A stretch of DNA of 64,000 bases from Candidatus Micrarchaeota archaeon. Its GTDB lineage: Archaea > Micrarchaeota > Micrarchaeia > Norongarragalinales > SBBD01. The stretch's first letter is position 1. The number at the start of each line of letters is the position of its first letter. The position numbers and the translations under genes are program-made. Below the pieces are notes generated by a model that was not told the DNA's origin, made no database searches, and saw only the letters and a list, made by a program, of their open reading frames with translations. The DNA lies in the NCBI GenBank assembly GCA_018819225.1, contig JAHJQN010000004.1, positions 273,715-337,714 on the forward strand. The letters are read 5' to 3'. This document shows, piece by piece, positions 2,701-62,913 of the stretch.

Positions 2701-3864
2701 ATGGCCGTACAGTTTGAACTCGACGACGACAAGTTACTAGTCAAAGACCTCATTTCCGTGCAAGCCCTTGACCGCGGATACTTTGGAACCGATTTTCAAG
2801 GTAAAAAAAATTTGCTCGAACTCATTCCAGAGGAAGCCTTGTACCTGATGGACGTACGCAATGCGATCTGCCTGAAAAAAAAGCGAAAAATTTCATTTAA
2901 CCAAGTCGCCCGAAGACACAACAAGGAAAAGAAGTTTCTGGCACGATACTTTTGTTACAAGGATTGGCGCGATCGCGGCATCATTGCCCGACGAATTGAT
3001 CGCACGGACACCGAATACGGAAGAAGTCCCGTGGTCAAGTACCCATCGAAAGAATTCCTTCCACTACGCATCCACGCCAAGGCGATGTTCTTCTCCGACG
3101 ATCTCATGGCCATCATTGATGACGAAACCGAAGGTCAGCGGGTCTATGAAGAACGATGGTTCGGACAATACGGAACCTATAAAGCCAAAAAGCACGGCCG
3201 ATTTTTGAAACTGGATGCGTACGAAACCTTGTTTCTCATCAAGCACGCCGGATTGAAAACCAATGTCAGTGAAACGCAATTGATTCGAGCCTGCCAAAAA
3301 CGACGAAAAGACTTTCTCGCGCTCTATGAAGTGTTTGAAGACTGGCGTCTGCGTTCATTCGTACTCAAAACGGGTTTCAAGTTCGGAACGCATTTTCGCC
3401 TATATTTTCCGGGCGCATCCCCGAAACTAGGCAATGAAGAGTGGATGCATAGCAAGCACGTCATTCACGTGTTCCCTCGCGAAAATAAGATGTTAATTAG
3501 CGAATGGGCCCGCGCCATACGGGTGGCACACGGCGTCAAAAAAACGTTTATTCTCGCGATACCGGGGGTGAAAACTGAAAAACCAGCGGAAGTCGATTTC
3601 TTGTTGTACCACCGCAAGAAAGGCGGCCTCATCGAAAACCCAAAACAGGATTCCCCGAAATTTGTTATGCTTGCTTTGAGCGAAGAAGAAGAAATTGGAG
3701 GAGAAGAATTGGCGCAAGCCATTGAAAAATCTAAGGGAATGGGGTTGGATCTCATGCTCGCGATCTGCGACCGAGAAACCGCCATAACCTACTATCGAGT
3801 GAAGCGCGTCGAGCTCCCGAAAAGCAAGTACGAGTACTATGAGATTGAATGGAAGCAACCCTAA
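2701..3864 (+). CDS. endA: tRNA-splicing endonuclease, three-unit (epsilon2-like) fused form
   Basis: Two segments align to the M. jannaschii EndA catalytic domain: YFCYKDWRDRGIIA, and LYEVFEDWRLRSFVLKTGFKFGTHFRLYFPG...HSKHVIHVFP...WARAIRVAHGVKKTFILAIP with Tyr/His/Lys catalytic positions. A third C-terminal unit has LAICDRETAITYYRVKRV. Preceded by a GGAGGAG RBS. Confidence 0.75.
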   Translation: MAVQFELDDDKLLVKDLISVQALDRGYFGTDFQGKKNLLELIPEEALYLMDVRNAICLKKKRKISFNQVARRHNKEKKFLARYFCYKDWRDRGIIARRIDRTDTEYGRSPVVKYPSKEFLPLRIHAKAMFFSDDLMAIIDDETEGQRVYEERWFGQYGTYKAKKHGRFLKLDAYETLFLIKHAGLKTNVSETQLIRACQKRRKDFLALYEVFEDWRLRSFVLKTGFKFGTHFRLYFPGASPKLGNEEWMHSKHVIHVFPRENKMLISEWARAIRVAHGVKKTFILAIPGVKTEKPAEVDFLLYHRKKGGLIENPKQDSPKFVMLALSEEEEIGGEELAQAIEKSKGMGLDLMLAICDRETAITYYRVKRVELPKSKYEYYEIEWKQP

Positions 3865-4753: not shown

Positions 4754-6109
4754 TTATTTCTCGTGACGCAAAGCGTTCATATGGTTCACGCGTTTTTGAA
4801 CGAGCGCCGTAGTTCCAATGTCTTTCCGATGCGTGACCGGACCCTTGATACGTCGCACGGCTTCCTCCGCAATGCGTTCCGCATCTTCCAGCTTATCGGC
4901 AATGCCCACGCACGCGATGGCCCGAGAGGCGCCCATGCGCAACTGAAGGGCATCCGAACCATCCAAGGATTCCACGGAACCCAAATAGACTTTCAGCTTC
5001 CCGCCCAATTCGTTCTCGTATGCACGAAGACTCGAAATATCGATGATTTCCCCTTTTTTGGGCTTCAACGGATACCCTTCCGGAACCGCGTACTTGCATA
5101 CCGTCGCTTTCTGCGCAAACTCAAGCTTTACGTCACGCAAACGCTCGTGCACGATCGCATCCATCACTTCCACAAAATCCGATTTAATTAATGGAAGAAT
5201 ATTCATCACTTCCGGATCGCCGAAACGGACGTTGTACTCGATGAGCTTCACCCCTTCCACGGTCAACATGAACCCCCCGTACATAATGCCCTTGAACCGA
5301 ATCCCCGTCTCCTTGAAAATGGCTTCAGCCACCTCCTGCGTAATTCGTTTAGCGGTTTCCAAATCCGATGCTGAAACAAAAGGCAGCAAGTGGTTTTGCA
5401 TGCTGTATGAACCCATACCGCCCGTATTCGGTCCCGTATCATCTTCAAACGCCCGCTTGTGATCCTGGGCAATCGGAGAGGGAATAACGGTCTTGCCGTC
5501 CGTAAAGAATTGAACGCTAAACTCTTCACCCTCCAGTTTCTCCTCTAAAACCACTTTCGAACCCTGATCCAACAATTGTTGACAATACGTTTTGGCATCC
5601 TCGACGCCTTTCAAGTGATCGCCCAAAACCTTCACGCCCTTTCCACCCGTCAACCCGTCGGGTTTGACCACGAACTTTCCAAGGTCGATCAAATAATCTT
5701 CCACGCCGTCCATTGAATCAAACACGTGATACTCGAGGCTGCCTTCAATGTCGTATTTTTTTAATAGGTTTCGCATGAATGACTTGCTGCTTTCTAAACG
5801 AGCATTCGTTTTTAACGGACCCGCACACGGAACGCCCACTTCATTCAATGCGTCTACCACACCCGCAGCCAGGGGCGCTTCCGGACTAATCACAGCCAGA
5901 TCCGGCGTCACTTCCCGAGCGAATCGTTGAATGGCTTCCAGGTCATTGGCGCGTCCCACGACATGATTTTTTGAACGGGCAATCACCGACGGATTCGCAT
6001 GGGAAAGGTAACTGAATAGAGCCGTATTTTTACATCGGGAAATGGCTTCAGCCAAACAGTCCGCCCGAGCCGTACTGCCTAACGCAATCAATAACACGTT
6101 CCTCGTCAT
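4754..6109 (-). CDS. purD: phosphoribosylamine--glycine ligase
   Basis: ATP-grasp protein with [23 protein letters not shown], which matches E. coli PurD [23 protein letters not shown]. The likely start is [12 protein letters not shown] at 6109; the ORF track extends to 6124. Confidence 0.9.
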   Translation of the reverse strand: [451 protein letters not shown]

Positions 6110-6138
6110 TCCAAATCCCCTCAACCCAAATCAACGAC

Positions 6139-6456
6139 TCAACTGAAAATGCTTCCAAAACCCGCTGCAGCCGATCCTTCATCGGAATCCAGTTTCATCA
6201 ACACCGTCTCGCGATCGCTTCCATCCAATACCTTGAGAGATTCAATAGGCTTCAATGCCTCCAACAATTTTTTTTCCCTCGCTCCATCATCGCATTGAAA
6301 AACCAGTACGTAATTGCCGCCCTTCAAACCCAGACGATTGCTTTCTCGAAGCGTATACCCCACGCGACTGAACGAGTCAGCCCCATACGGATTCTCCTCG
6401 AGCAATTTCTTCAGGCTCTTGTAATCCGATCCTTCAACCAGGAAGACCCGCTTCAT
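6139..6456 (-). CDS. hypothetical protein (105 aa)
   Basis: ORF adjacent to purD; no family recognised. Confidence 0.35.
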   Translation of the reverse strand: MKRVFLVEGSDYKSLKKLLEENPYGADSFSRVGYTLRESNRLGLKGGNYVLVFQCDDGAREKKLLEALKPIESLKVLDGSDRETVLMKLDSDEGSAAAGFGSIFS

Positions 6457-13423: not shown

Positions 13424-13560
13424 GAATAAAATTTACCCGACGTGAGTATAAAAACGAAACGTATCAAGAACCTCATGCGGCGTGTTGGATTAGAGCCATT
13501 CAAGCAAACCTTTTCTTTTAAAAGAAAAGCCTTACCAAAAGAATATCGCAGTTCATAAGC

Positions 13561-13659
13561 GCCTCCGTAGCTCAGGGGTAGAGCGCCTGTCTTGTAGGGA
13601 TGGTTAGAAACGCGTTCCAAGAAAACAGGAGGTCGCGAGTTCAATTCTCGCCGGAGGCT
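13561..13659 (+). tRNA. tRNA-Thr(TGT) with 27-nt canonical (37/38) intron
   Basis: Hand fold: acceptor GCCTCCG/CGGAGGC, D arm GCTC-AGGGGTA-GAGC, anticodon stem CCTGT/ACAGG with loop CTTGTA|intron|A, T arm GCGAG-TTCAATT-CTCGC, discriminator T. Intron about 13597-13623. Confidence 0.8.
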
Positions 13660-23059: not shown

Positions 23060-23310
23060 GAATGCAGTCTCCAAGCTGGCCGGGGAGCTAGAGGTTCCCT
23101 ATCATCGCCAATCCTCTTTACGGCGAGCGGTGGTTGGAGCGAGGAAAAGACGTCAACGTGCAGTCCGGTCAACGCCGTCGATGTCTCGCCTCATGTTATG
23201 TTTTTGAGTACGAATGGGCCAGGCCGGAAGGAGCAACCCTAAGCACTGAAGAGCATGCTCATGAGAACCGAGGCGGAGGCAATGATTGGAGTCCCTGCAT
23301 GCGGACGTTT
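23060..23310 (+). ncRNA. candidate signal recognition particle RNA (7S/SRP RNA)
   Basis: GGGCCAGGCCGGAAGGAGCAACCC (23213-23240) matches the domain IV/helix 8 consensus (CAGGNCCGGAAGGNAGCA with a GGAA tetraloop). The 5' TGCAGTCTCCAAGC can pair with the 3' TTGGAGTCCCTGCA. TATA-like ccttaaaaa lies about 25 nt upstream and a T7 run follows directly. Confidence 0.5.
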
Positions 23311-23314
23311 TTTT
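23308..23314 (+). terminator. oligo-T terminator after the SRP RNA candidate
   Basis: TTTTTTT directly after the predicted 3' helix. Confidence 0.4.
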
Positions 23315-23356
23315 CAAAGCCCAACGTGCTCGGAGGCTGCACTCTTTACACTCGCG

Positions 23357-39095: not shown

Positions 39096-39216
39096 AGCGG
39101 GGGACGAGAATCGAACTCGTCTAATCCGCTCGCTGCAAAAACCCCCATTCTAAGATAAAATGGATATCGAACGGGTTTTACTGCAGGCGGATGCATAACC
39201 AATCTGCCACCCCCGC
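39096..39216 (-). tRNA. tRNA-Cys(GCA) with ~49-nt canonical intron
   Basis: Minus-strand fold: GCGGGGG acceptor, anticodon stem TCCGC/GCGGA with loop CTGCAG|intron|A, T arm ACGAG-TTCGATT-CTCGT, 3' CCCCCGC, discriminator T. The exons resemble M. jannaschii tRNA-Cys. Confidence 0.7.
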
Positions 39217-41866: not shown

Positions 41867-42003
41867 GGCGTGGGTCGTCTAGTCTGGTCTAGGATTGGGG
41901 ACTGTGGTTTTTGCGCCGTAAAGCAAAAGCAGAAATCCCCCGACCTGAGCTCCTCTCCTTTAAACGAAAGAAGAGGGCAGGAATTCAAATCTCAGCCCAC
42001 GCC
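41867..42003 (+). tRNA. tRNA-His(GTG) with encoded G-1 and two introns (37/38 and 53/54)
   Basis: G-1 + GCGTGGG acceptor pairing with CCCACGC, discriminator C73. Anticodon stem GGGGA/TCCCC with loop CTGTGG|27-nt intron|A. T stem CTGAG|34-nt intron|TTCAAAT-CTCAG. Lies immediately 5' of hisS. Confidence 0.65.
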
Positions 42004-42029
42004 CTCATACCCTTAAAAGGCGAACGACC

Positions 42030-51064: not shown

Positions 51065-51179
51065 GGGCTCGTAGCTCAGCCGGCAGAGCGATCGGCTCTT
51101 AACCGATAGGTCGAGGGTTCGAAACCCGTTTTATTCCCGTGAAAAATAAAGCGCTTATGCGAAACTCCCTCCGAGCCCG
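51065..51179 (+). tRNA. tRNA-Lys(CTT) with ~42-nt intron in the T-loop region (non-canonical position ~59-61)
   Basis: GGGCTCG acceptor, anticodon stem ATCGG/CCGAT with loop CTCTTAA, T stem GAGGG + TTCGAAA, then 42 nt before CCCTC-CGAGCCC-G. CGAAAC is repeated at both junctions, so the exact splice sites are ambiguous. Confidence 0.6.
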
Positions 51180-57621: not shown

Positions 57622-57766
57622 TGCAGGGAGAGGGATTTGAACCCTCGAAGCTTCTACAGCACAGGATTTCCTAAAACCCTTTCTTTTCTCGTCGAGGTCT
57701 TTTCTTTACAAAAAGAAAAGAGGTCGCTTAAGTCCCGCCCCTTTGACCGAACTTGGGTACCCCTGC
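57622..57766 (-). tRNA. tRNA-Leu(TAA) with ~59-nt canonical intron
   Basis: Minus-strand fold: GCAGGGG acceptor, D arm CCC-AAGTTCGGTCAAA-GGG, anticodon stem CGGGA/TCCTG with loop CTTAAG|intron|A, long variable arm GCT-GTAGA-AGC, T arm GAGGG-TTCAAAT-CCCTC, 3' TCCCTGC-A. The exons resemble archaeal tRNA-Leu. The intron forms a long perfect hairpin. Confidence 0.7.
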
Positions 57767-57848
57767 GTAAACCTTTTTTTAATGAAAGCTTAAAAGCGTC
57801 ATGGATACGCCTAGATGAATGAACTCATAGGCGTTAATGCGCCGCGGA

Positions 57849-58013
57849 TTACTTGCCTCCGCCCTTGGCTTCCTTTCGGCGCGCGCGCTTGGGTCGCAAA
57901 TGAGGATAATTGCACTTGCGGCACTTCACCGTCCCTTTCGGATTGCGCGTCTTGCATTTCAAGCAAACGACGACCGATAGAAACGCTTTGTCAGCTAAAG
58001 GAAACTTGCCCAT
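57849..58013 (-). CDS. rpl40e: 50S ribosomal protein L40e (54 aa; absent from the ORF track)
   Basis: Translation MGKFPLADKAFLSVVVCLKCKTRNPKGTVKCRKCNYPHLRPKRARRKEAKGGGK has the eL40 C4 zinc-ribbon pattern (C-x2-C...ARNP...C-RKCG...LRPK). Confidence 0.7.
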   Translation of the reverse strand: MGKFPLADKAFLSVVVCLKCKTRNPKGTVKCRKCNYPHLRPKRARRKEAKGGGK

Positions 58014-58134
58014 ACTGGTTCACGAAAACTTCTGTAAAAGAAGAGAATACTGGTATGGCTACCAACGTTTTTAAAGGCTATTTTGTCCTAAGAAAGAGGT
58101 AGCTGCTTCTTTACCCCGATGGTTGATTTGACAT

Positions 58135-58295
58135 GCCTCCGTAGCTCAGTAGTAGAGACGGAACCTTTTCTTTTTTAATAGAAAAGCTTCACCAAAAGAA
58201 GAAGCGAATAAAAGCGCCTCCGTAGCTCAGTAGTAGAGCGCGAACCTTTTCTTTAATAAAGAAAAGCTTCACCAAAAGAAAGCGCGTATTCCCAT
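58135..58295 (+). repeat. two tandem ~80-nt units, each = tRNA-Thr 5' half (positions 1-25) + promoter-like spacer, preceding the intact tRNA-Thr(GGT)
   Basis: GCCTCCGTAGCTCAGTAGTAGAG(A/C)(C)G at 58135 and 58216. Each is followed by GAACCTTTTCTTT(TT)AATA(A)AGAAAAGCTTCACCAAAAGAA, which is homologous to the region upstream of tRNA-Thr(TGT) at 13507-13545. Confidence 0.6.
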
Positions 58296-58367
58296 GCCTC
58301 CGTAGCTCAGTAGTAGAGCGCTTCCTTGGTAAGGAAGAGGTCGCGGGTGCGATTCCCGCCGGAGGCT
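58296..58367 (+). tRNA. tRNA-Thr(GGT), intronless
   Basis: GCCTCCG-TA-GCTC-AGTAGTA-GAGC-G-CTTCC-TTGGTAA-GGAAG-AGGTC-GCGGG-TGCGATT-CCCGC-CGGAGGC-T. Confidence 0.85.
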
Positions 58368-60468: not shown

Positions 60469-60510
60469 GGAACCACCTATTTCTTACTAGTCTTCCTCGG
60501 TTTTAATAAG

Positions 60511-60556
60511 TGCGGGCTTTGCACCTTTTGGGCGAGCCACGCCGGAGGCTTACGGA
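60511..60556. repeat. direct repeat A containing a tRNA-Thr 3'-end-like core (CGCCGGAGGCTTACGGAAA)
   Basis: GTGCGGGCTTTGCACCTTTTGGGCGAGCCACGCCGGAGGCTTACGG; 42 of 46 nt identical to repeat B. The core matches the tRNA-Thr(TGT) 3' end + flank (CGCCGGAGGCTTCCGGAAA). Confidence 0.55.
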
Positions 60557-60580
60557 AAAGCATGACAAAAAGGCGATCGA

Positions 60581-60823
60581 TTAGGAATAAATATTCTGAC
60601 GGTGCCCCGCGTCATGCAAGCGAACGGCGTTCTTGCTTAAAGAGTAAATGATCCGGTAGTCGCCGACCCGCAAGCTAAAGAAATTCGACAGGCGCCCGTG
60701 AAGCCGTTTGCCCGCGCGAGGAAATTGGCCAAGAAGCGTAACTTCACGGAGCAGCCGCACCCGAATATTGCGAGGCAACTTGCGGAAAGACTTTTGGAAG
60801 TGATTGGAATAAAGCACTTCCAT
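60581..60823 (-). CDS. relE: type II toxin RelE/ParE family
   Basis: 80 aa. LGQFPRAGKRLHGRLSNFFSLRVGDYRIIYSL...HRQNIY is a classic RelE/ParE signature (G..L.G.....LRvGdYRiiY...HR...Y). Confidence 0.8.
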   Translation of the reverse strand: MEVLYSNHFQKSFRKLPRNIRVRLLREVTLLGQFPRAGKRLHGRLSNFFSLRVGDYRIIYSLSKNAVRLHDAGHRQNIYS

Positions 60824-60828
60824 GCGAA

Positions 60829-61023
60829 TTACACCTTCAGATTAACAATGGAATGAAATCGGCCATCCGAAAAATCCTTCTCAGATGAACGAATTCCTTT
60901 TAGTAGTTTCTTGTCTGCGAGGACTTCCAGCGTTTCCTGCAAAGATTCGAAAGCATCCCTGGCTTCTTCAAAGCTCTTCTTCGCTGCGTTCAATTCCTTC
61001 CGAATAGATGAACCGACGTACAT
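60829..61023 (-). CDS. putative cognate antitoxin (RelB/Phd-like)
   Basis: 64 aa, located 5 nt upstream of relE. The C-terminus ETLEVLADKKLLKGIRSSEKDFSDGRFHS resembles antitoxin C-termini. Confidence 0.5.
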   Translation of the reverse strand: MYVGSSIRKELNAAKKSFEEARDAFESLQETLEVLADKKLLKGIRSSEKDFSDGRFHSIVNLKV

Positions 61024-61101
61024 TCTAAGTCCCTTACAACAGCAGTAAAACGAGCTTTATAATACTTGCTAGACACGAGCGCCATTGGATTTGTCTCGAG
61101 G

Positions 61102-61147
61102 TACGGGCTTTGCACCTTTTGGCCGAGTCCCTCCGGAGGCTTCCGGA
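61102..61147. repeat. direct repeat B containing a tRNA-Thr 3'-end-like core (CTCCGGAGGCTTCCGGA)
   Basis: GTACGGGCTTTGCACCTTTTGGCCGAGTCCCTCCGGAGGCTTCCGG. Confidence 0.55.
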
Positions 61148-61223
61148 TTTTTAGATTTCAACGGCAGCATACCCTTCCGAAAGGAATATATATGGACTTA
61201 GTTCATATTGATATGGTGATAAC

Positions 61224-61454
61224 ATGGTGCATGCATTAGTCAATATTTCGGAAGAAGCAAACCGCGTGTTGAACGTGATTAAAGCGAAAAAGAATTTGCG
61301 AACCAAATCAGAGGCGATTGAGGAGATGGCGCGAGAGTACGAGCAAGAACTCTTGGAACCCGAACTTCGACCGGAATACGTGGAACGCATTCGGAAAATC
61401 GGCAAGCAAAAAACGATTACAGTGAAGGACTTCGAAAAAGAGTTTCTGAGCTGA
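61224..61454 (+). CDS. putative antitoxin
   Basis: 76 aa, 7 nt upstream of a RelE-like ORF. Confidence 0.4.
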   Translation: MVHALVNISEEANRVLNVIKAKKNLRTKSEAIEEMAREYEQELLEPELRPEYVERIRKIGKQKTITVKDFEKEFLS

Positions 61455-61461
61455 TGGCGGC

Positions 61462-61728
61462 ATGTATGGTCTCGAAGTGTCTCCGGAAGCGTATGCCCGG
61501 TTCAAAAAGATGCGAAAAAAGAACCGCTGGCTACTCGAAGTCATTGGCAAGAAGGTCCGGCATATACGCGAGCGCCCCCATCATTTCAAACCGCTTCATT
61601 TCCCCCTTCATAACAAACGACGGGTCCATATTGCGGGATCGTTTGTACTCGTCTATGAAATCAGGGAAAAAGACAAAACCGTTGTCATCATAGACTTCGA
61701 CCACCACGATAACGTTTACATGAAATGA
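61462..61728 (+). CDS. type II toxin RelE/ParE family
   Basis: 88 aa. RPHHFKPLHFPLHNKRRVHIAGSFVLVYEIREKDKTVVIIDFDHHDNVY fits the RelE pattern. Confidence 0.65.
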   Translation: MYGLEVSPEAYARFKKMRKKNRWLLEVIGKKVRHIRERPHHFKPLHFPLHNKRRVHIAGSFVLVYEIREKDKTVVIIDFDHHDNVYMK

Positions 61729-61775
61729 CGGAATCGGTTTAAGCGAACGAATGGATGGGGGTATATCGTTTGAAT

Positions 61776-61794
61776 GAGTCCGGCCGGAGGCTCT
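61776..61794. repeat. direct repeat C (GAGTCCGGCCGGAGGCTCT), partial tRNA-Thr 3'-end-like core
   Basis: Shares GAGTCC..CCGGAGGCT with repeat B. Confidence 0.4.
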
Positions 61795-61848
61795 GAACGT
61801 TCCGCATTTTTTTTATTCTTGGTTCAATGGGGATTGCGAAAACCGCGG

Positions 61849-62913
61849 TCATACCCACTTTTGTTTCCGGAAATAAAACAGCATGACGAATGATATCGCG
61901 ATCATGAACATCCAGAGAATCGGATAGGCTAACGGCCAATCCAACTCGGGCATGAAACGAAAATTCATGCCGTACACTCCGACAATGAACGTCAGCGGAA
62001 TAAAGAGAGTGGCAATAACGGTTAAGGTCTTCATGACCTCGTTCATCCGATTGCTGATGCTGGACATGTAGAGGTCCATCATCCCGGATAAAAGATCGCG
62101 GTACGAATCGATGGAATCAATGGCGTGGATGATGTGGTCGTAAACGTCCCGCAAGAACACGGCGGTCTGGTTCTTGATCAGCTTCGATTCGTTCCGCTGG
62201 AGTCCGCTGATGACTTCCCTCAATGGCCACACGCCCTTCCGCAAGAACACCAAATCCGTTTTCATGGCGTGAATGGAATGCAGCGTGGACTGGGACGGGT
62301 TCGCCACCAGTTCTCCCTCCAATTGCTCTATGCGTTCCCCCAATTCCTCCAGAATGACAAAATAATGGTCGACGACGGAATCGATCAACGTATAAAAAAG
62401 GTAATCGGCGCCCATCCTCCGAATCCGTCCTTTTCCCTTGCGAAGACGTTCGCGAAGCGGATCAAAAACGTCTCCGGGTTTTTCCTGAAAAGAAATCACG
62501 TACTGCTTTCCAAGAATCACGCTGACTTGTTCGGACTCCACCCTCTTTTTTTCCCGATCAAAATAGAGCATTTTCATGACTAAAAAAAGGTGGTCCCCGA
62601 AATCCTCGAGCTTGGGGCGTTGATCAGTATGGACGATATCCTCGATGAGCATCGGATGAAAACCCAAACGATCTCCCAGTTTCTGGATCCCTTGCGAATC
62701 GTGCACGCCGTCCACGTTAATCCACGTAATCGAGGGCGCGTCTTTGATCGGAAAACACGCATCAAACGAGTCCGGTTTAAGTTCTTTCACGTCATCCGAA
62801 GTAAAATTAAAAAGCGTGATTTCCACGCGATCCGTTTTCTTTTCGCCCACGAATACTGCCGTACCCGGACTCAACCCCGCTTTCTTTGAAGCCCTTTTGA
62901 AATACCGCGACAT
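61849..62913 (-). CDS. corA: CorA magnesium/cobalt transporter
   Basis: C-terminal YGMNF (GMN motif) followed by two TM helices; cytoplasmic N-domain; 354 aa. Confidence 0.85.
   Translation of the reverse strand: MSRYFKRASKKAGLSPGTAVFVGEKKTDRVEITLFNFTSDDVKELKPDSFDACFPIKDAPSITWINVDGVHDSQGIQKLGDRLGFHPMLIEDIVHTDQRPKLEDFGDHLFLVMKMLYFDREKKRVESEQVSVILGKQYVISFQEKPGDVFDPLRERLRKGKGRIRRMGADYLFYTLIDSVVDHYFVILEELGERIEQLEGELVANPSQSTLHSIHAMKTDLVFLRKGVWPLREVISGLQRNESKLIKNQTAVFLRDVYDHIIHAIDSIDSYRDLLSGMMDLYMSSISNRMNEVMKTLTVIATLFIPLTFIVGVYGMNFRFMPELDWPLAYPILWMFMIAISFVMLFYFRKQKWV

What the first reader, a model, noticed from the sequence alone, without database searches (positions are those of the whole stretch)
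2701..3864. Three-unit tRNA-splicing endonuclease together with an intron-rich tRNA set that includes non-canonical positions
Five of the six tRNAs in 64 kb carry introns. Thr(TGT), Cys and Leu have them at 37/38. tRNA-His (41867-42003) has a second intron between T stem and T loop (53/54), and tRNA-Lys(CTT) (51065-51179) has a roughly 42-nt insertion in the T-loop region. The same window encodes a 387 aa EndA with three recognisable EndA-like units: an N-terminal unit with a degenerate catalytic region, a full catalytic unit with Tyr/His/Lys positions, and a third C-terminal unit. Three-unit (epsilon2) EndA has been reported in ultrasmall ARMAN archaea and is linked to relaxed bulge-helix-loop specificity. 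That would explain how introns at non-canonical positions are tolerated, and it gives a lineage hint (DPANN-like).
Basis: partly seen in the sequence, partly recalled or inferred. Interest (0 to 1): 0.65.

Follow-up and report, generated by a model that had tools for sequence, protein, structure and literature searches.

The report
Known three-unit tRNA splicing enzyme, intron-rich tRNAs
The window, from a Micrarchaeota (DPANN) archaeon, encodes a clear ortholog of the already characterised three-unit (epsilon2) tRNA-splicing endonuclease and six tRNA genes, five of them with introns (two at T-arm positions 53/54 and 59/60), so the finding is correct but re-discovers a published system.

Summary
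ORF 2701-3864 (387 aa) matches the crystallised ARMAN-2 epsilon2 EndA (PDB 4FZ2/9W2K) over its full length: phmmer E=6e-125, 51.5% identity, AlphaFold model TM 0.92-0.93. The three units and both linkers are colinear. The catalytic triad (Y235/H250/K281), the specificity loop (G158-H165, with Y160 and K161), the bulge-binding R274/W384 and the dimer salt-bridge residues are all conserved.

The window holds six tRNA genes, and five carry introns. Thr(TGT), Cys and Leu each have one at 37/38. His has two, at 37/38 and 53/54. Lys(CTT) has a 42-nt intron that I place exactly at 59/60. All six introns sit in bulge-helix-bulge motifs with a 4/4 bp central helix, and in-silico splicing restores the cloverleaf. 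The Lys motif is relaxed (hBH/BHL type), the substrate class that ARMAN-2 EndA was shown to cut.

The identical protein is public as a 'Candidatus Micrarchaeota' tRNA-intron lyase. At least 80 Micrarchaeota species encode full-length orthologs. So this is a new member of a known kind, of low interest.

One correction: the N-terminal unit has no degenerate catalytic domain; it is an N-subdomain unit plus linker.

One side observation is unexplained: a hairpin sequence family shared by tRNA introns and the upstream regions of the tRNA-Thr genes.

The parts
2701..3864 (+). endA gene, epsilon2-type (three-unit) tRNA-splicing endonuclease, 387 aa
   Evidence: ORF. Pfam and NCBIfam EndA domains. phmmer to 4fz2_A E=6.2e-125 over residues 11-387. 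Identical protein in NCBI/ENA as tRNA-intron lyase, Candidatus Micrarchaeota. AF2 model TM 0.92 to 4FZ2.
2704..2991 (+). alphaN unit (aa 2-97), N-terminal-subdomain-like structural unit without catalytic residues
   Evidence: Colinear with ARMAN-2 residues 2-97, 48% identity. hhalign of alphaN against the alpha unit: E=1.5e-6, probability 90%.
2992..3075 (+). linker 1 (aa 98-125)
   Evidence: Aligned to ARMAN-2 linker 98-125 at only 14% identity. Low pLDDT block around residues 101-110.
3076..3561 (+). alpha unit (aa 126-287), the catalytic unit with Y235, H250 and K281, pocket K227/R233 and RNA-binding R274
   Evidence: Mapped from Y236/H251/K282 of ARMAN-2. Among the 120 homologs, H250 and K281 are invariant and Y235 is Tyr in 119 (one Phe). 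K227, R233, S251 and R274 are invariant in A2.
3172..3195 (+). ARMAN-type specific loop (ASL), aa 158-165 GTYKAKKH, with Y160 and K161
   Evidence: Aligns to ARMAN-2 G158-H165 GTYKVSEH. K161 and Y160 are invariant in 120 homologs. Role in broad specificity comes from Hirata 2012 and Miyata 2025.
3562..3597 (+). linker 2 (aa 288-299)
   Evidence: Aligned to ARMAN-2 linker 289-300.
3598..3861 (+). betaC unit (aa 300-387), structural unit with L10-loop acidic residues D357/E359 and bulge-stacking W384
   Evidence: 60% identical to ARMAN-2 301-387. Weak matches to crenarchaeal beta subunit models and Sen15. D357, E359 and W384 are invariant in A2.
13561..13659 (+). tRNA-Thr(TGT) with 27-nt intron 13597-13623 at 37/38, strict hBHBh'
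39096..39216 (-). tRNA-Cys(GCA) with 50-nt intron 39131-39180 at 37/38, strict hBHBh'
41867..42004 (+). tRNA-His(GTG, G-1 encoded) with two introns: 41908-41934 (27 nt, 37/38) and 41950-41983 (34 nt, 53/54)
   Evidence: Missed by ARAGORN and Rfam on raw sequence. Called tRNA-His only after removing both introns. BHB: H CCTG/CAGG, bulges AG|C and AA|T, h 2 bp, h' 6 bp. The MFE fold reproduces H, the 3-nt bulge and h'.
51065..51179 (+). tRNA-Lys(CTT) with 42-nt intron 51124-51165 at 59/60, relaxed hBH (BHL-type) motif
   Evidence: Rfam matches only model positions 8-63. The spliced sequence is called tRNA-Lys(ctt). Only the 59/60 register gives H TTCG/CGAA 4/4, h = T stem 5 bp, h' 1 bp. The MFE fold shows h + H + a 3' 3-nt bulge, with the 5' site in an internal loop.
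57622..57766 (-). tRNA-Leu(TAA) with 59-nt intron 57668-57726 at 37/38
58296..58367 (+). tRNA-Thr(GGT), the only intron-less tRNA gene of the window

Best explanation
The window comes from a Micrarchaeota (DPANN) genome.

Gene 2701-3864 encodes an ortholog of the epsilon2-type RNA-splicing endonuclease first described in ARMAN-1 and ARMAN-2. One polypeptide carries three units: alphaN, a catalytic alpha unit and a structural betaC unit. By homology, two protomers form a dimer through the L10 loop (D357/E359) and the basic pocket (K227/R233), which gives two active sites (Y235/H250/K281). Each site cuts one 3-nt bulge of a bulge-helix-bulge motif, between the second and third bulge nucleotides. 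The lineage-specific loop G158-H165 (Y160, K161) holds the bulge backbone, so that relaxed motifs (hBH, HBh') can also be cut.

The substrates lie in the same window: six introns in five tRNA genes. Four are at 37/38. One is at 53/54 in tRNA-His, in a near-strict BHB. One is at 59/60 in tRNA-Lys(CTT), in a relaxed hBH motif.

What is shown here: the orthology, the conserved functional residues, the fold, the intron positions, and the BHB geometry.

What is inferred from experiments on the ARMAN-2 enzyme: dimerisation, cleavage, broad specificity, and the idea that this specificity is what allows the T-arm introns to persist.
For: - phmmer to 4fz2_A: E=6.2e-125 over 11-387.
- 51.5% identity with colinear units and linkers; Y235/H250/K281 and ASL K161 conserved.
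- K161, H250 and K281 invariant in the 120 best homologs, all about 385 aa; Y235 is Tyr in 119 of them.
- R274, W384, K227, S251, D357 and E359 invariant in alignment A2.
- AF2 model pLDDT 86.9; Foldseek TM 0.92-0.93 to 4FZ2/9W2K, against 0.5 or less for two-unit EndAs.
- Internal homology of alphaN to alpha: E=1.5e-6.
- tRNAs: spliced sequences are called as the expected tRNAs; all six introns have a 4/4 central helix and 3-nt bulges; MFE folds reproduce the motifs.
- No other tRNA loci were found.
- Relatives: tRNA-Lys genes in L039 and L031 have 59/60 introns with the same TTCG/CGAA helix, and L021 carries a T-loop intron in tRNA-Lys(TTT).
- Literature: ARMAN-2 EndA cleaves a 59/60 hBH intron in vitro, and the ASL with K161 confers this ability. 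[quoted passage not shown]
Against: - There are no expression, splicing or enzymatic data for this organism.
- Only 64 kb of a contig of at least 709 kb was examined, so intact second copies of tRNA-His or tRNA-Lys(CTT) elsewhere cannot be excluded.
- The ASL region (161-165) has pLDDT below 50 in the model, so its conformation is not predicted.
- betaC similarity to other EndA units is weak at the sequence level (hhalign E=2.5e-3) and rests mainly on the match to 4FZ2.
- The outer helix of the His 53/54 motif is only 2 bp and is not in the MFE fold.
Confidence: 0.93

Rival explanations
1. The protein is an ordinary two-unit (alpha'2-like) EndA, and the extra N- or C-terminal sequence is non-homologous linker or extension rather than a true third unit.
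For: Pfam reports only two significant domain families, one N-terminal and one catalytic; the C-terminal match is weak (Sen15 E=0.085; beta-subunit models E about 1e-3). betaC against the alpha C-subdomain gives hhalign probability of only 12%.
Against: The alignment to the crystallised three-unit enzyme is full-length, with betaC 60% identical. The model has TM 0.92-0.93 to 4FZ2/9W2K but only 0.50-0.53 to alpha'2 EndAs. The order of units (structural N unit, catalytic unit, structural C unit) is permuted relative to alpha'2. alphaN is homologous to the alpha N-subdomain.
Confidence: 0.02
2. The interrupted tRNA-His and tRNA-Lys(CTT) loci are decaying pseudogenes or insertion-disrupted genes, and the inserts are not spliced introns.
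For: Neither ARAGORN nor the Rfam tRNA model recognises them as complete genes on the raw sequence. The rest of the genome was not available to check for intact copies.
Against: Removing the inserts at the BHB-defined sites restores perfect cloverleafs with canonical T loops. Each insert is bounded by a 4/4 bp helix and 3-nt bulges in the exact register needed. The exons carry no disabling mismatches. TATA-like boxes lie about 35 nt upstream. The same 59/60 architecture occurs in tRNA-Lys of other Micrarchaeota and in experimentally spliced ARMAN-2 pre-tRNA-Cys.
Confidence: 0.04
3. The co-occurrence is real but not causal: the non-canonical introns here have near-canonical BHB motifs that any archaeal EndA could cut, so the epsilon2 architecture is not what permits them.
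For: Five of the six introns, including His 53/54, have the central helix and both 3-nt bulges. Only the Lys 59/60 motif is clearly relaxed.
Against: The Lys 59/60 motif lacks an inner helix next to the 5' site, which makes it hBH/BHL. That class was barely cleaved by the alpha'2 AFU enzyme unless the ASL was grafted in. The His 53/54 outer helix is only 2 bp. ARMAN-4 and ARMAN-5, which have alpha4 EndA, have few disrupted tRNA genes (about 15% versus 56% in ARMAN-2).
Confidence: 0.1

Closest known systems
epsilon2-type RNA-splicing endonuclease of Candidatus Micrarchaeum acidiphilum ARMAN-2 (PDB 4FZ2, 9W2K; Fujishima 2011, Hirata 2012, Miyata 2025)
   Same: Same length class (387 aa). Same alphaN-linker-alpha-linker-betaC order. 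Same catalytic triad, ASL with Tyr-Lys, Arg/Trp bulge clamp and L10/pocket salt-bridge residues. Predicted fold TM 0.92-0.93. It accompanies a tRNA set with many introns, including at 53/54 and 59/60.
   Different: Only 51.5% identical. Linker 1 is essentially unrelated (14%). ASL sequence is GTYKAKKH rather than GTYKVSEH. K241 and K244 of the second ARMAN-2 loop are S240 and L243 here; those lysines were not needed for activity in ARMAN-2. The host lineage within Micrarchaeota differs, and the tRNAs carrying the T-arm introns differ too (His and Lys here; Cys and Pro are the ARMAN-2 examples shown in Figure 1 of Fujishima 2011).
(alpha-beta)2 heterotetrameric EndA of Crenarchaeota and Nanoarchaeum (e.g. 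Aeropyrum pernix 3P1Z, P. aerophilum 2ZYZ, N. equitans 3IEY)
   Same: Broad substrate specificity for relaxed BHB motifs and non-canonical intron positions. Catalytic alpha plus structural beta elements. A specificity loop with a key lysine (CSL K44), analogous to ASL K161.
   Different: Separate alpha and beta polypeptides and no alphaN unit. CSL and ASL are not homologous in sequence (convergence, per Hirata 2012). TM to this model is only about 0.34 when normalised on the query.
alpha'2 homodimeric EndA of Euryarchaeota (Archaeoglobus fulgidus 1RLV/2GJW)
   Same: A homodimer of a multi-unit polypeptide, with the same catalytic chemistry and BHB recognition.
   Different: Two units in the order structural then catalytic. 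No ASL. Narrow specificity (strict BHB). TM about 0.5.
tRNA intron transposition or duplication, described by the authors of Fujishima 2011 for Thermoproteales (cited there as ref. 29)
   Same: Related intron sequences occur in different tRNA genes and at different positions: the window's Leu intron, the two 59/60 introns in L031, and the introns in L021 and L009.
   Different: Seen here in Micrarchaeota. The related sequence also lies upstream of both tRNA-Thr genes. No mechanism or direction of transfer can be inferred from the present data.

Membership tests
epsilon2-type (three-unit) archaeal RNA-splicing endonuclease | A single polypeptide of about 385-390 aa with three units in the order alphaN - alpha - betaC, joined by two linkers | tested here: met
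   Global alignment to 4FZ2 is colinear in all five segments. AF2 model TM 0.92-0.93 and rmsd 2.1 A to 4fz2_A/9w2k_B over the whole chain. alphaN is homologous to the alpha N-subdomain.
epsilon2-type (three-unit) archaeal RNA-splicing endonuclease | The catalytic triad Tyr/His/Lys is present only in the middle (alpha) unit | tested here: met
   Y235/H250/K281 align to Y236/H251/K282. H250 and K281 are invariant in 120 homologs and Y235 is Tyr in 119. No triad is present in alphaN or betaC (alignment; structure definition).
epsilon2-type (three-unit) archaeal RNA-splicing endonuclease | ARMAN-type specific loop (ASL) with the RNA-contacting Tyr-Lys (Y160, K161) | tested here: met
   Residues 158-165 are GTYKAKKH; K161 and Y160 are invariant in 120 homologs. 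The loop conformation is not confidently modelled (pLDDT below 50 at 161-165).
epsilon2-type (three-unit) archaeal RNA-splicing endonuclease | L10-loop acidic residues and basic pocket for homodimer formation (D357-K228 and E359-R234 in ARMAN-2) | tested here: met
   D357, E359, K227 and R233 are present and invariant in A2. Dimer formation itself was not tested.
epsilon2-type (three-unit) archaeal RNA-splicing endonuclease | Forms an epsilon2 homodimer | not testable with these tools
   Inferred from conserved interface residues and the 4FZ2 homolog. Would need cross-linking, SEC or a structure.
epsilon2-type (three-unit) archaeal RNA-splicing endonuclease | Cleaves both strict hBHBh' and relaxed hBH/HBh' motifs (broad specificity) | not testable with these tools
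   Indirect evidence only: the same window contains a relaxed hBH intron at 59/60 in tRNA-Lys(CTT), the only copy of that gene seen in the window. Activity has been shown only for the ARMAN-2 enzyme.
Archaeal BHB-type tRNA introns | A 4-bp central helix flanked by two 3-nt bulges on opposite strands, with cleavage after the second bulge nucleotide, whose removal restores a cloverleaf | tested here: met
   All six introns have a 4/4 helix and 3-nt bulges. Spliced products are called as Thr, Cys, His, Lys and Leu tRNAs by ARAGORN. For Lys the 5' site lies in a loop (relaxed hBH) in the MFE fold.
alpha'2 two-unit EndA | Two tandem EndA units (structural then catalytic) and no third unit | tested here: not met
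   There is a third unit (betaC, residues 300-387) after the catalytic unit. TM is only about 0.5 to 1RLV/2GJW/1R11.

The most novel reading that the evidence does not exclude
The introns of this lineage may belong to a duplicating or mobile sequence family.

The family is a T-rich/A-rich hairpin (CTTTTC..GAAAAG) followed by ..TCA.CCAAAAGAA. It occurs in:
- the window's tRNA-Leu 37/38 intron;
- two different tRNA genes of another Micrarchaeon, at 59/60 (L031, about 80% identical to each other by eye);
- a tRNA-Lys T-loop intron (L021) and a D-loop-region intron (L009);
- the window's tRNA-Thr genes, directly upstream of both, and after two truncated 5' copies of tRNA-Thr(GGT).

If this reflects intron transposition, or intron origin from tRNA flanking or promoter sequence, it would give a concrete example of how introns spread to new positions once a broad-specificity epsilon2 EndA was in place.
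Probability: 0.2. Interest if true: 0.5.

Novelty: new member of a known kind. Interest (0 to 1): 0.2.

Why it matters
The finding adds one more Micrarchaeota genome in which an epsilon2 EndA is found alongside T-arm tRNA introns. In passing, it shows that the epsilon2 architecture, its catalytic residues and its specificity loop are conserved across at least 80 Micrarchaeota species, not only in the two ARMAN lineages where it was described.

That is useful for annotation. Standard tRNA finders miss tRNA-His entirely and truncate tRNA-Lys here, and the gene is labelled only 'tRNA-intron lyase'. It does not change the understanding of tRNA splicing.

Tried and rejected
1. ARAGORN's own intron placements (Ser(tga), Gly(gcc), Ser(tga)) were rejected. 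Manual BHB-guided splicing gives Thr(TGT), Cys(GCA) and Leu(TAA).

2. Alternative registers for the Lys intron (60/61 to 63/64, which also restore a 7-nt T loop) were rejected, because only 59/60 gives a BHB.

3. Hidden tRNAs. A loose acceptor + D-arm pattern scan was uninformative: it gave a large number of hits, while shuffled sequence gave about 400-470. It was replaced by the SPLITS-like single-splice and double-splice scans, which found nothing new.

4. The idea that the truncated tRNA-Thr 5' copies plus following sequence (58135-58295) are nested introns or split-tRNA halves was rejected. No BHB joins the units in any register, and no matching 3' half was found in the window.

5. The idea that these 5' copies are att sites of a known virus got no support: there was no match in viral contigs. 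A metagenome scan showed that similar tandem 5'-end duplications occur at tRNA genes on two other metagenome contigs, which I did not assign to an organism, so they are a generic phenomenon.

6. Supplementary tables of Fujishima 2011, which list ARMAN-2 tRNAs, are not held. I could not compare intron positions tRNA by tRNA.

7. The tRNA census in the 80 related loci is noisy: intron boundaries are off by 1-2 nt and some calls are doubtful. I use it only qualitatively.
Full report
**1. Observation**

The ORF at 2701..3864 (+) is real and encodes 387 aa. Pfam finds the EndA N-terminal domain (residues 3-68, E=1e-14) and the catalytic domain (205-288, E=3e-26). NCBIfam and Pfam also give weak matches of residues 320-374 to crenarchaeal beta-subunit models and to Sen15.

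Default tRNA tools see only part of the tRNA set:
- ARAGORN without introns finds only Thr(GGT).
- Rfam at gathering threshold finds Thr(GGT), Thr(TGT) and a truncated Lys; with the E-value threshold it also finds Leu.
- ARAGORN with introns finds four genes but misplaces the introns.
- tRNA-His is missed by all of them.

Manual parsing, in-silico splicing and a BHB check give six genes:

| tRNA | Coordinates | Intron(s) |
|---|---|---|
| Thr(TGT) | 13561-13659 (+) | 27 nt, 37/38 |
| Cys(GCA) | 39096-39216 (-) | 50 nt, 37/38 |
| His(GTG, G-1 encoded) | 41867-42004 (+) | 27 nt at 37/38 and 34 nt at 53/54 |
| Lys(CTT) | 51065-51179 (+) | 42 nt, 59/60 |
| Leu(TAA) | 57622-57766 (-) | 59 nt, 37/38 |
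| Thr(GGT) | 58296-58367 (+) | none |

ARAGORN calls each spliced sequence as the expected tRNA. His needs both introns removed.

Every intron has a perfect 4-bp central helix flanked by two 3-nt bulges in the cleavage register. For Lys, only the 59/60 register gives such a motif, and it yields the canonical T loop TTCGAAT.

MFE folds reproduce the motifs:
- The His 53/54 intron forms H (CCUG/CAGG), a 3-nt bulge and a long inner helix.
- The Lys intron forms the T stem as outer helix, H (UUCG/CGAA) and the 3' bulge, but its 5' site lies in an internal loop. This is a relaxed hBH (BHL-type) motif.

I also enumerated every BHB-like motif in the window, spliced each in silico and ran ARAGORN, then did the same with pairs of motifs in the intergenic regions. 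This recovered the six loci, including His with exactly these two introns, and nothing else. 'Five of six tRNAs with introns, two at non-canonical positions' is confirmed.

**2. What the protein is**

phmmer against all PDB sequences gives 4fz2_A (also 9w2k) at E=6.2e-125 over residues 11-387. The next hits, two-unit and single-unit EndAs, are at E=1e-20 or weaker and cover only the catalytic unit. 4FZ2 is the epsilon2 EndA of Candidatus Micrarchaeum acidiphilum ARMAN-2.

A global alignment gives 51.5% identity. All five structural segments are colinear:

| Segment | Residues | Identity to ARMAN-2 |
|---|---|---|
| alphaN | 2-97 | 48% |
| linker 1 | 98-125 | 14% |
| alpha | 126-287 | 57% |
| linker 2 | 288-299 | 33% |
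| betaC | 300-387 | 60% |

Functional residues known from the ARMAN-2 work map as follows:
- Catalytic Y236/H251/K282 map to Y235/H250/K281.
- The ASL G158-H165 (GTYKVSEH) maps to GTYKAKKH, with Y160 and K161.
- The bulge clamp R275/W384 maps to R274/W384.
- K228 and S252 map to K227 and S251.
- The dimer salt bridges D357-K228 and E359-R234 map to D357/K227 and E359/R233 (roles; invariance in alignment A2).

In the 120 best database homologs, all about 379-418 aa, K161, H250 and K281 are invariant and Y235 is Tyr in 119.

An AlphaFold2 model (pLDDT 86.9) superposes on 4fz2_A and 9w2k_B with TM 0.92-0.93 and rmsd 2.1 A over the full chain. Two-unit EndAs reach only about 0.5.

Profile-profile comparison shows alphaN is homologous to the N-terminal part of the alpha unit (E=1.5e-6). 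betaC is only weakly similar to the alpha C-subdomain (E=2.5e-3). This fits the crystallographic description.

That model was revised in 2012: the N unit is an N-subdomain followed by a linker, with no catalytic domain.

**3. Origin and distribution**

The identical protein is public as 'tRNA-intron lyase [Candidatus Micrarchaeota archaeon]', on a 709,457-bp contig (ena:ERZ27247117:k141_304414).

A scan of one genome per GTDB species returned 80 full-length orthologous loci (52-79% identity) out of 579 confirmed EndA relatives. Most are labelled Micrarchaeota, Micrarchaeia, Norongarragalinales, Burarchaeum, Fermentimicrarchaeum or Anstonellaceae; a few are labelled only 'archaeon', one 'Candidatus ainarchaeum sp.' and one 'Kaiserbacteria'. 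The DPANN/Micrarchaeota lineage hint is therefore correct, and the epsilon2 type is a phylum-wide trait.

In these loci I also found other tRNA-Lys genes with T-loop introns built the same way:
- L039, Lys(CTT), 14-nt intron at 59/60;
- L031, Lys(TTT), 57-nt intron at 59/60;
- L021, Lys(TTT), T-loop intron.

This argues that the window's Lys insert is a genuine, recurrent intron and not decay.

**4. Mechanism**

By homology, the protein dimerises and presents two active sites that cut the two bulges of a BHB, leaving 2',3'-cyclic phosphate and 5'-OH ends. The ASL Tyr-Lys contacts the bulge backbone and allows relaxed motifs to be cut.

The ARMAN-2 enzyme was shown in vitro to cut a 37/38 hBHBh' intron and a 59/60 hBH intron. 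Grafting the ASL into the narrow-specificity A. fulgidus enzyme transferred this ability, in a K161-dependent manner.

The window's Lys 59/60 intron is of exactly that relaxed class, and His 53/54 has a very short outer helix. The inference that this enzyme is what lets these introns persist is reasonable, but it is untested here.

**5. Comparison with the known, and novelty**

Everything in the finding has been published for ARMAN-1 and ARMAN-2: the three-unit enzyme, broad specificity, a highly disrupted tRNA set with introns at 53/54 and 59/60, and coevolution of enzyme and introns.

This locus is a new, more distant member (51.5% identical) from another Micrarchaeota lineage. The particular tRNAs interrupted in the T arm (His and Lys) differ from the ARMAN-2 examples shown in Figure 1 of Fujishima 2011 (Cys and Pro).

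I rate it a new member of a known kind, of low interest.

**6. Things noticed outside the finding**

(a) *Tandem repeat upstream of tRNA-Thr(GGT).* A tandem repeat lies at 58131-58321 (period 80, 2.4 copies). It consists of two extra copies of the first ~26 nt of that tRNA, each followed by a ~55-nt element 'X'.
- X also lies directly upstream of tRNA-Thr(TGT). Its palindrome centre there is TTTTAAAA, at about -41, which looks TATA-like.
- The simplest reading of the repeat is therefore a duplication of promoter plus 5' end.
- No BHB links the units.
- Comparable tandem 5'-end duplications exist at tRNA genes on two other metagenome contigs, not assigned to an organism.

(b) *Similarity of X to tRNA introns.*
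- X is significantly similar to the window's Leu intron: local alignment score 34 against 12.7 +/- 2.3 for shuffles.
- X is also similar to introns in other Micrarchaeota tRNAs: two 59/60 introns in different tRNAs of L031 that closely resemble each other (about 80% by eye), a T-loop intron in L021, and a D-loop-region intron in L009.
- The L021 and L009 matches were found by an HMM that did not contain them.
- Whether this is intron mobility, a shared promoter-like palindrome or low-complexity convergence is unresolved.

(c) *Repeats and toxin-antitoxin pairs downstream of tRNA-Thr(GGT).* Three same-strand copies of a tRNA-Thr 3'-end-like motif (..CCGGAGGCTTCCGGA) lie near 60543, 61134 and 61785. 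They bracket two RelE-like toxin-antitoxin pairs (the RelE-like reading is from inspecting the translations; no family search was run). This suggests small cassettes integrated at a tRNA-Thr att site.

(d) *SRP RNA.* An archaeal SRP RNA lies at 23069-23335. It scores below Rfam's gathering threshold (80.8 vs 96.5 bits, E=2e-16) and is short, at 267 nt.

(e) *Probable mis-binned contig.* One epsilon2 EndA locus (L013) sits on a contig labelled as a Kaiserbacteria bacterium.

Noticed in passing
window 58131-58321 (copies start at 58135, 58216, 58296): 80-nt tandem repeat, 2.4 copies. It holds two truncated copies of the first ~26 nt of tRNA-Thr(GGT), each followed by a ~55-nt element X, ahead of the intact gene. 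No BHB joins the units, so they are not introns. Similar tandem 5'-end duplications occur at tRNA genes on two other metagenome contigs (L082, L083), whose organisms I did not determine.
   Followed up: partly
window 13505-13548, 58161-58205, 58241-58284, 57679-57722(-); L031 3124-3167(-) and 14985-15026(-); L021 6212-6260; L009 3452-3493: A sequence family: a T-rich/A-rich hairpin (CTTTTC..GAAAAG) followed by ..TCA.CCAAAAGAA. It is shared by the upstream regions of both tRNA-Thr genes, the tRNA-Leu 37/38 intron, and tRNA introns at 59/60 or in the D-loop region in three other Micrarchaeota genomes. In L031, two different tRNAs carry 59/60 introns that closely resemble each other (about 80% by eye). 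It may indicate intron duplication or mobility, or a promoter-like palindrome. Unexplained.
   Followed up: partly
window 60470-61850 (motif copies near 60543, 61134, 61785; small ORFs 60581-61023 (-) and 61224-61728 (+)): Three same-strand repeats ending in a tRNA-Thr 3'-end-like sequence (CCGGAGGCTTCCGGA, matching the 3' end plus downstream of Thr(TGT)). They bracket two toxin-antitoxin pairs that look RelE-like by inspection of the translations (no family search run), downstream of tRNA-Thr(GGT). This looks like small cassettes integrated at a tRNA att site.
   Followed up: partly
window 23069-23335 (+): Archaeal SRP RNA matched over the full model (1-317) in only 267 nt. Score 80.8 bits, below Rfam's gathering score of 96.5 (E=2e-16). 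Probably a shortened or divergent DPANN SRP RNA.
   Followed up: no
L013 (MFMA01000035.1, 8,963 bp): A contig labelled 'Candidatus Kaiserbacteria bacterium' encodes a full-length epsilon2 EndA 67% identical to the window's protein. This is most likely an archaeal (Micrarchaeota) contig mis-binned into a bacterial MAG.
   Followed up: no
L021 about 6090-6330 (+): A tRNA-Lys(TTT) gene with two inserts, one in the anticodon-loop region and a long (~80 nt) one in the T loop. ARAGORN misses it even with introns allowed. It shows that multi-intron tRNAs are common in epsilon2-bearing Micrarchaeota and are under-annotated.
   Followed up: partly
window 57840-58014 (-): A small ORF that I read by eye as ribosomal protein L40e (no homology search was run). 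It lies between tRNA-Leu(TAA) and the tRNA-Thr(GGT) repeat. Ordinary context, noted only to show that the repeat is intergenic.
   Followed up: no
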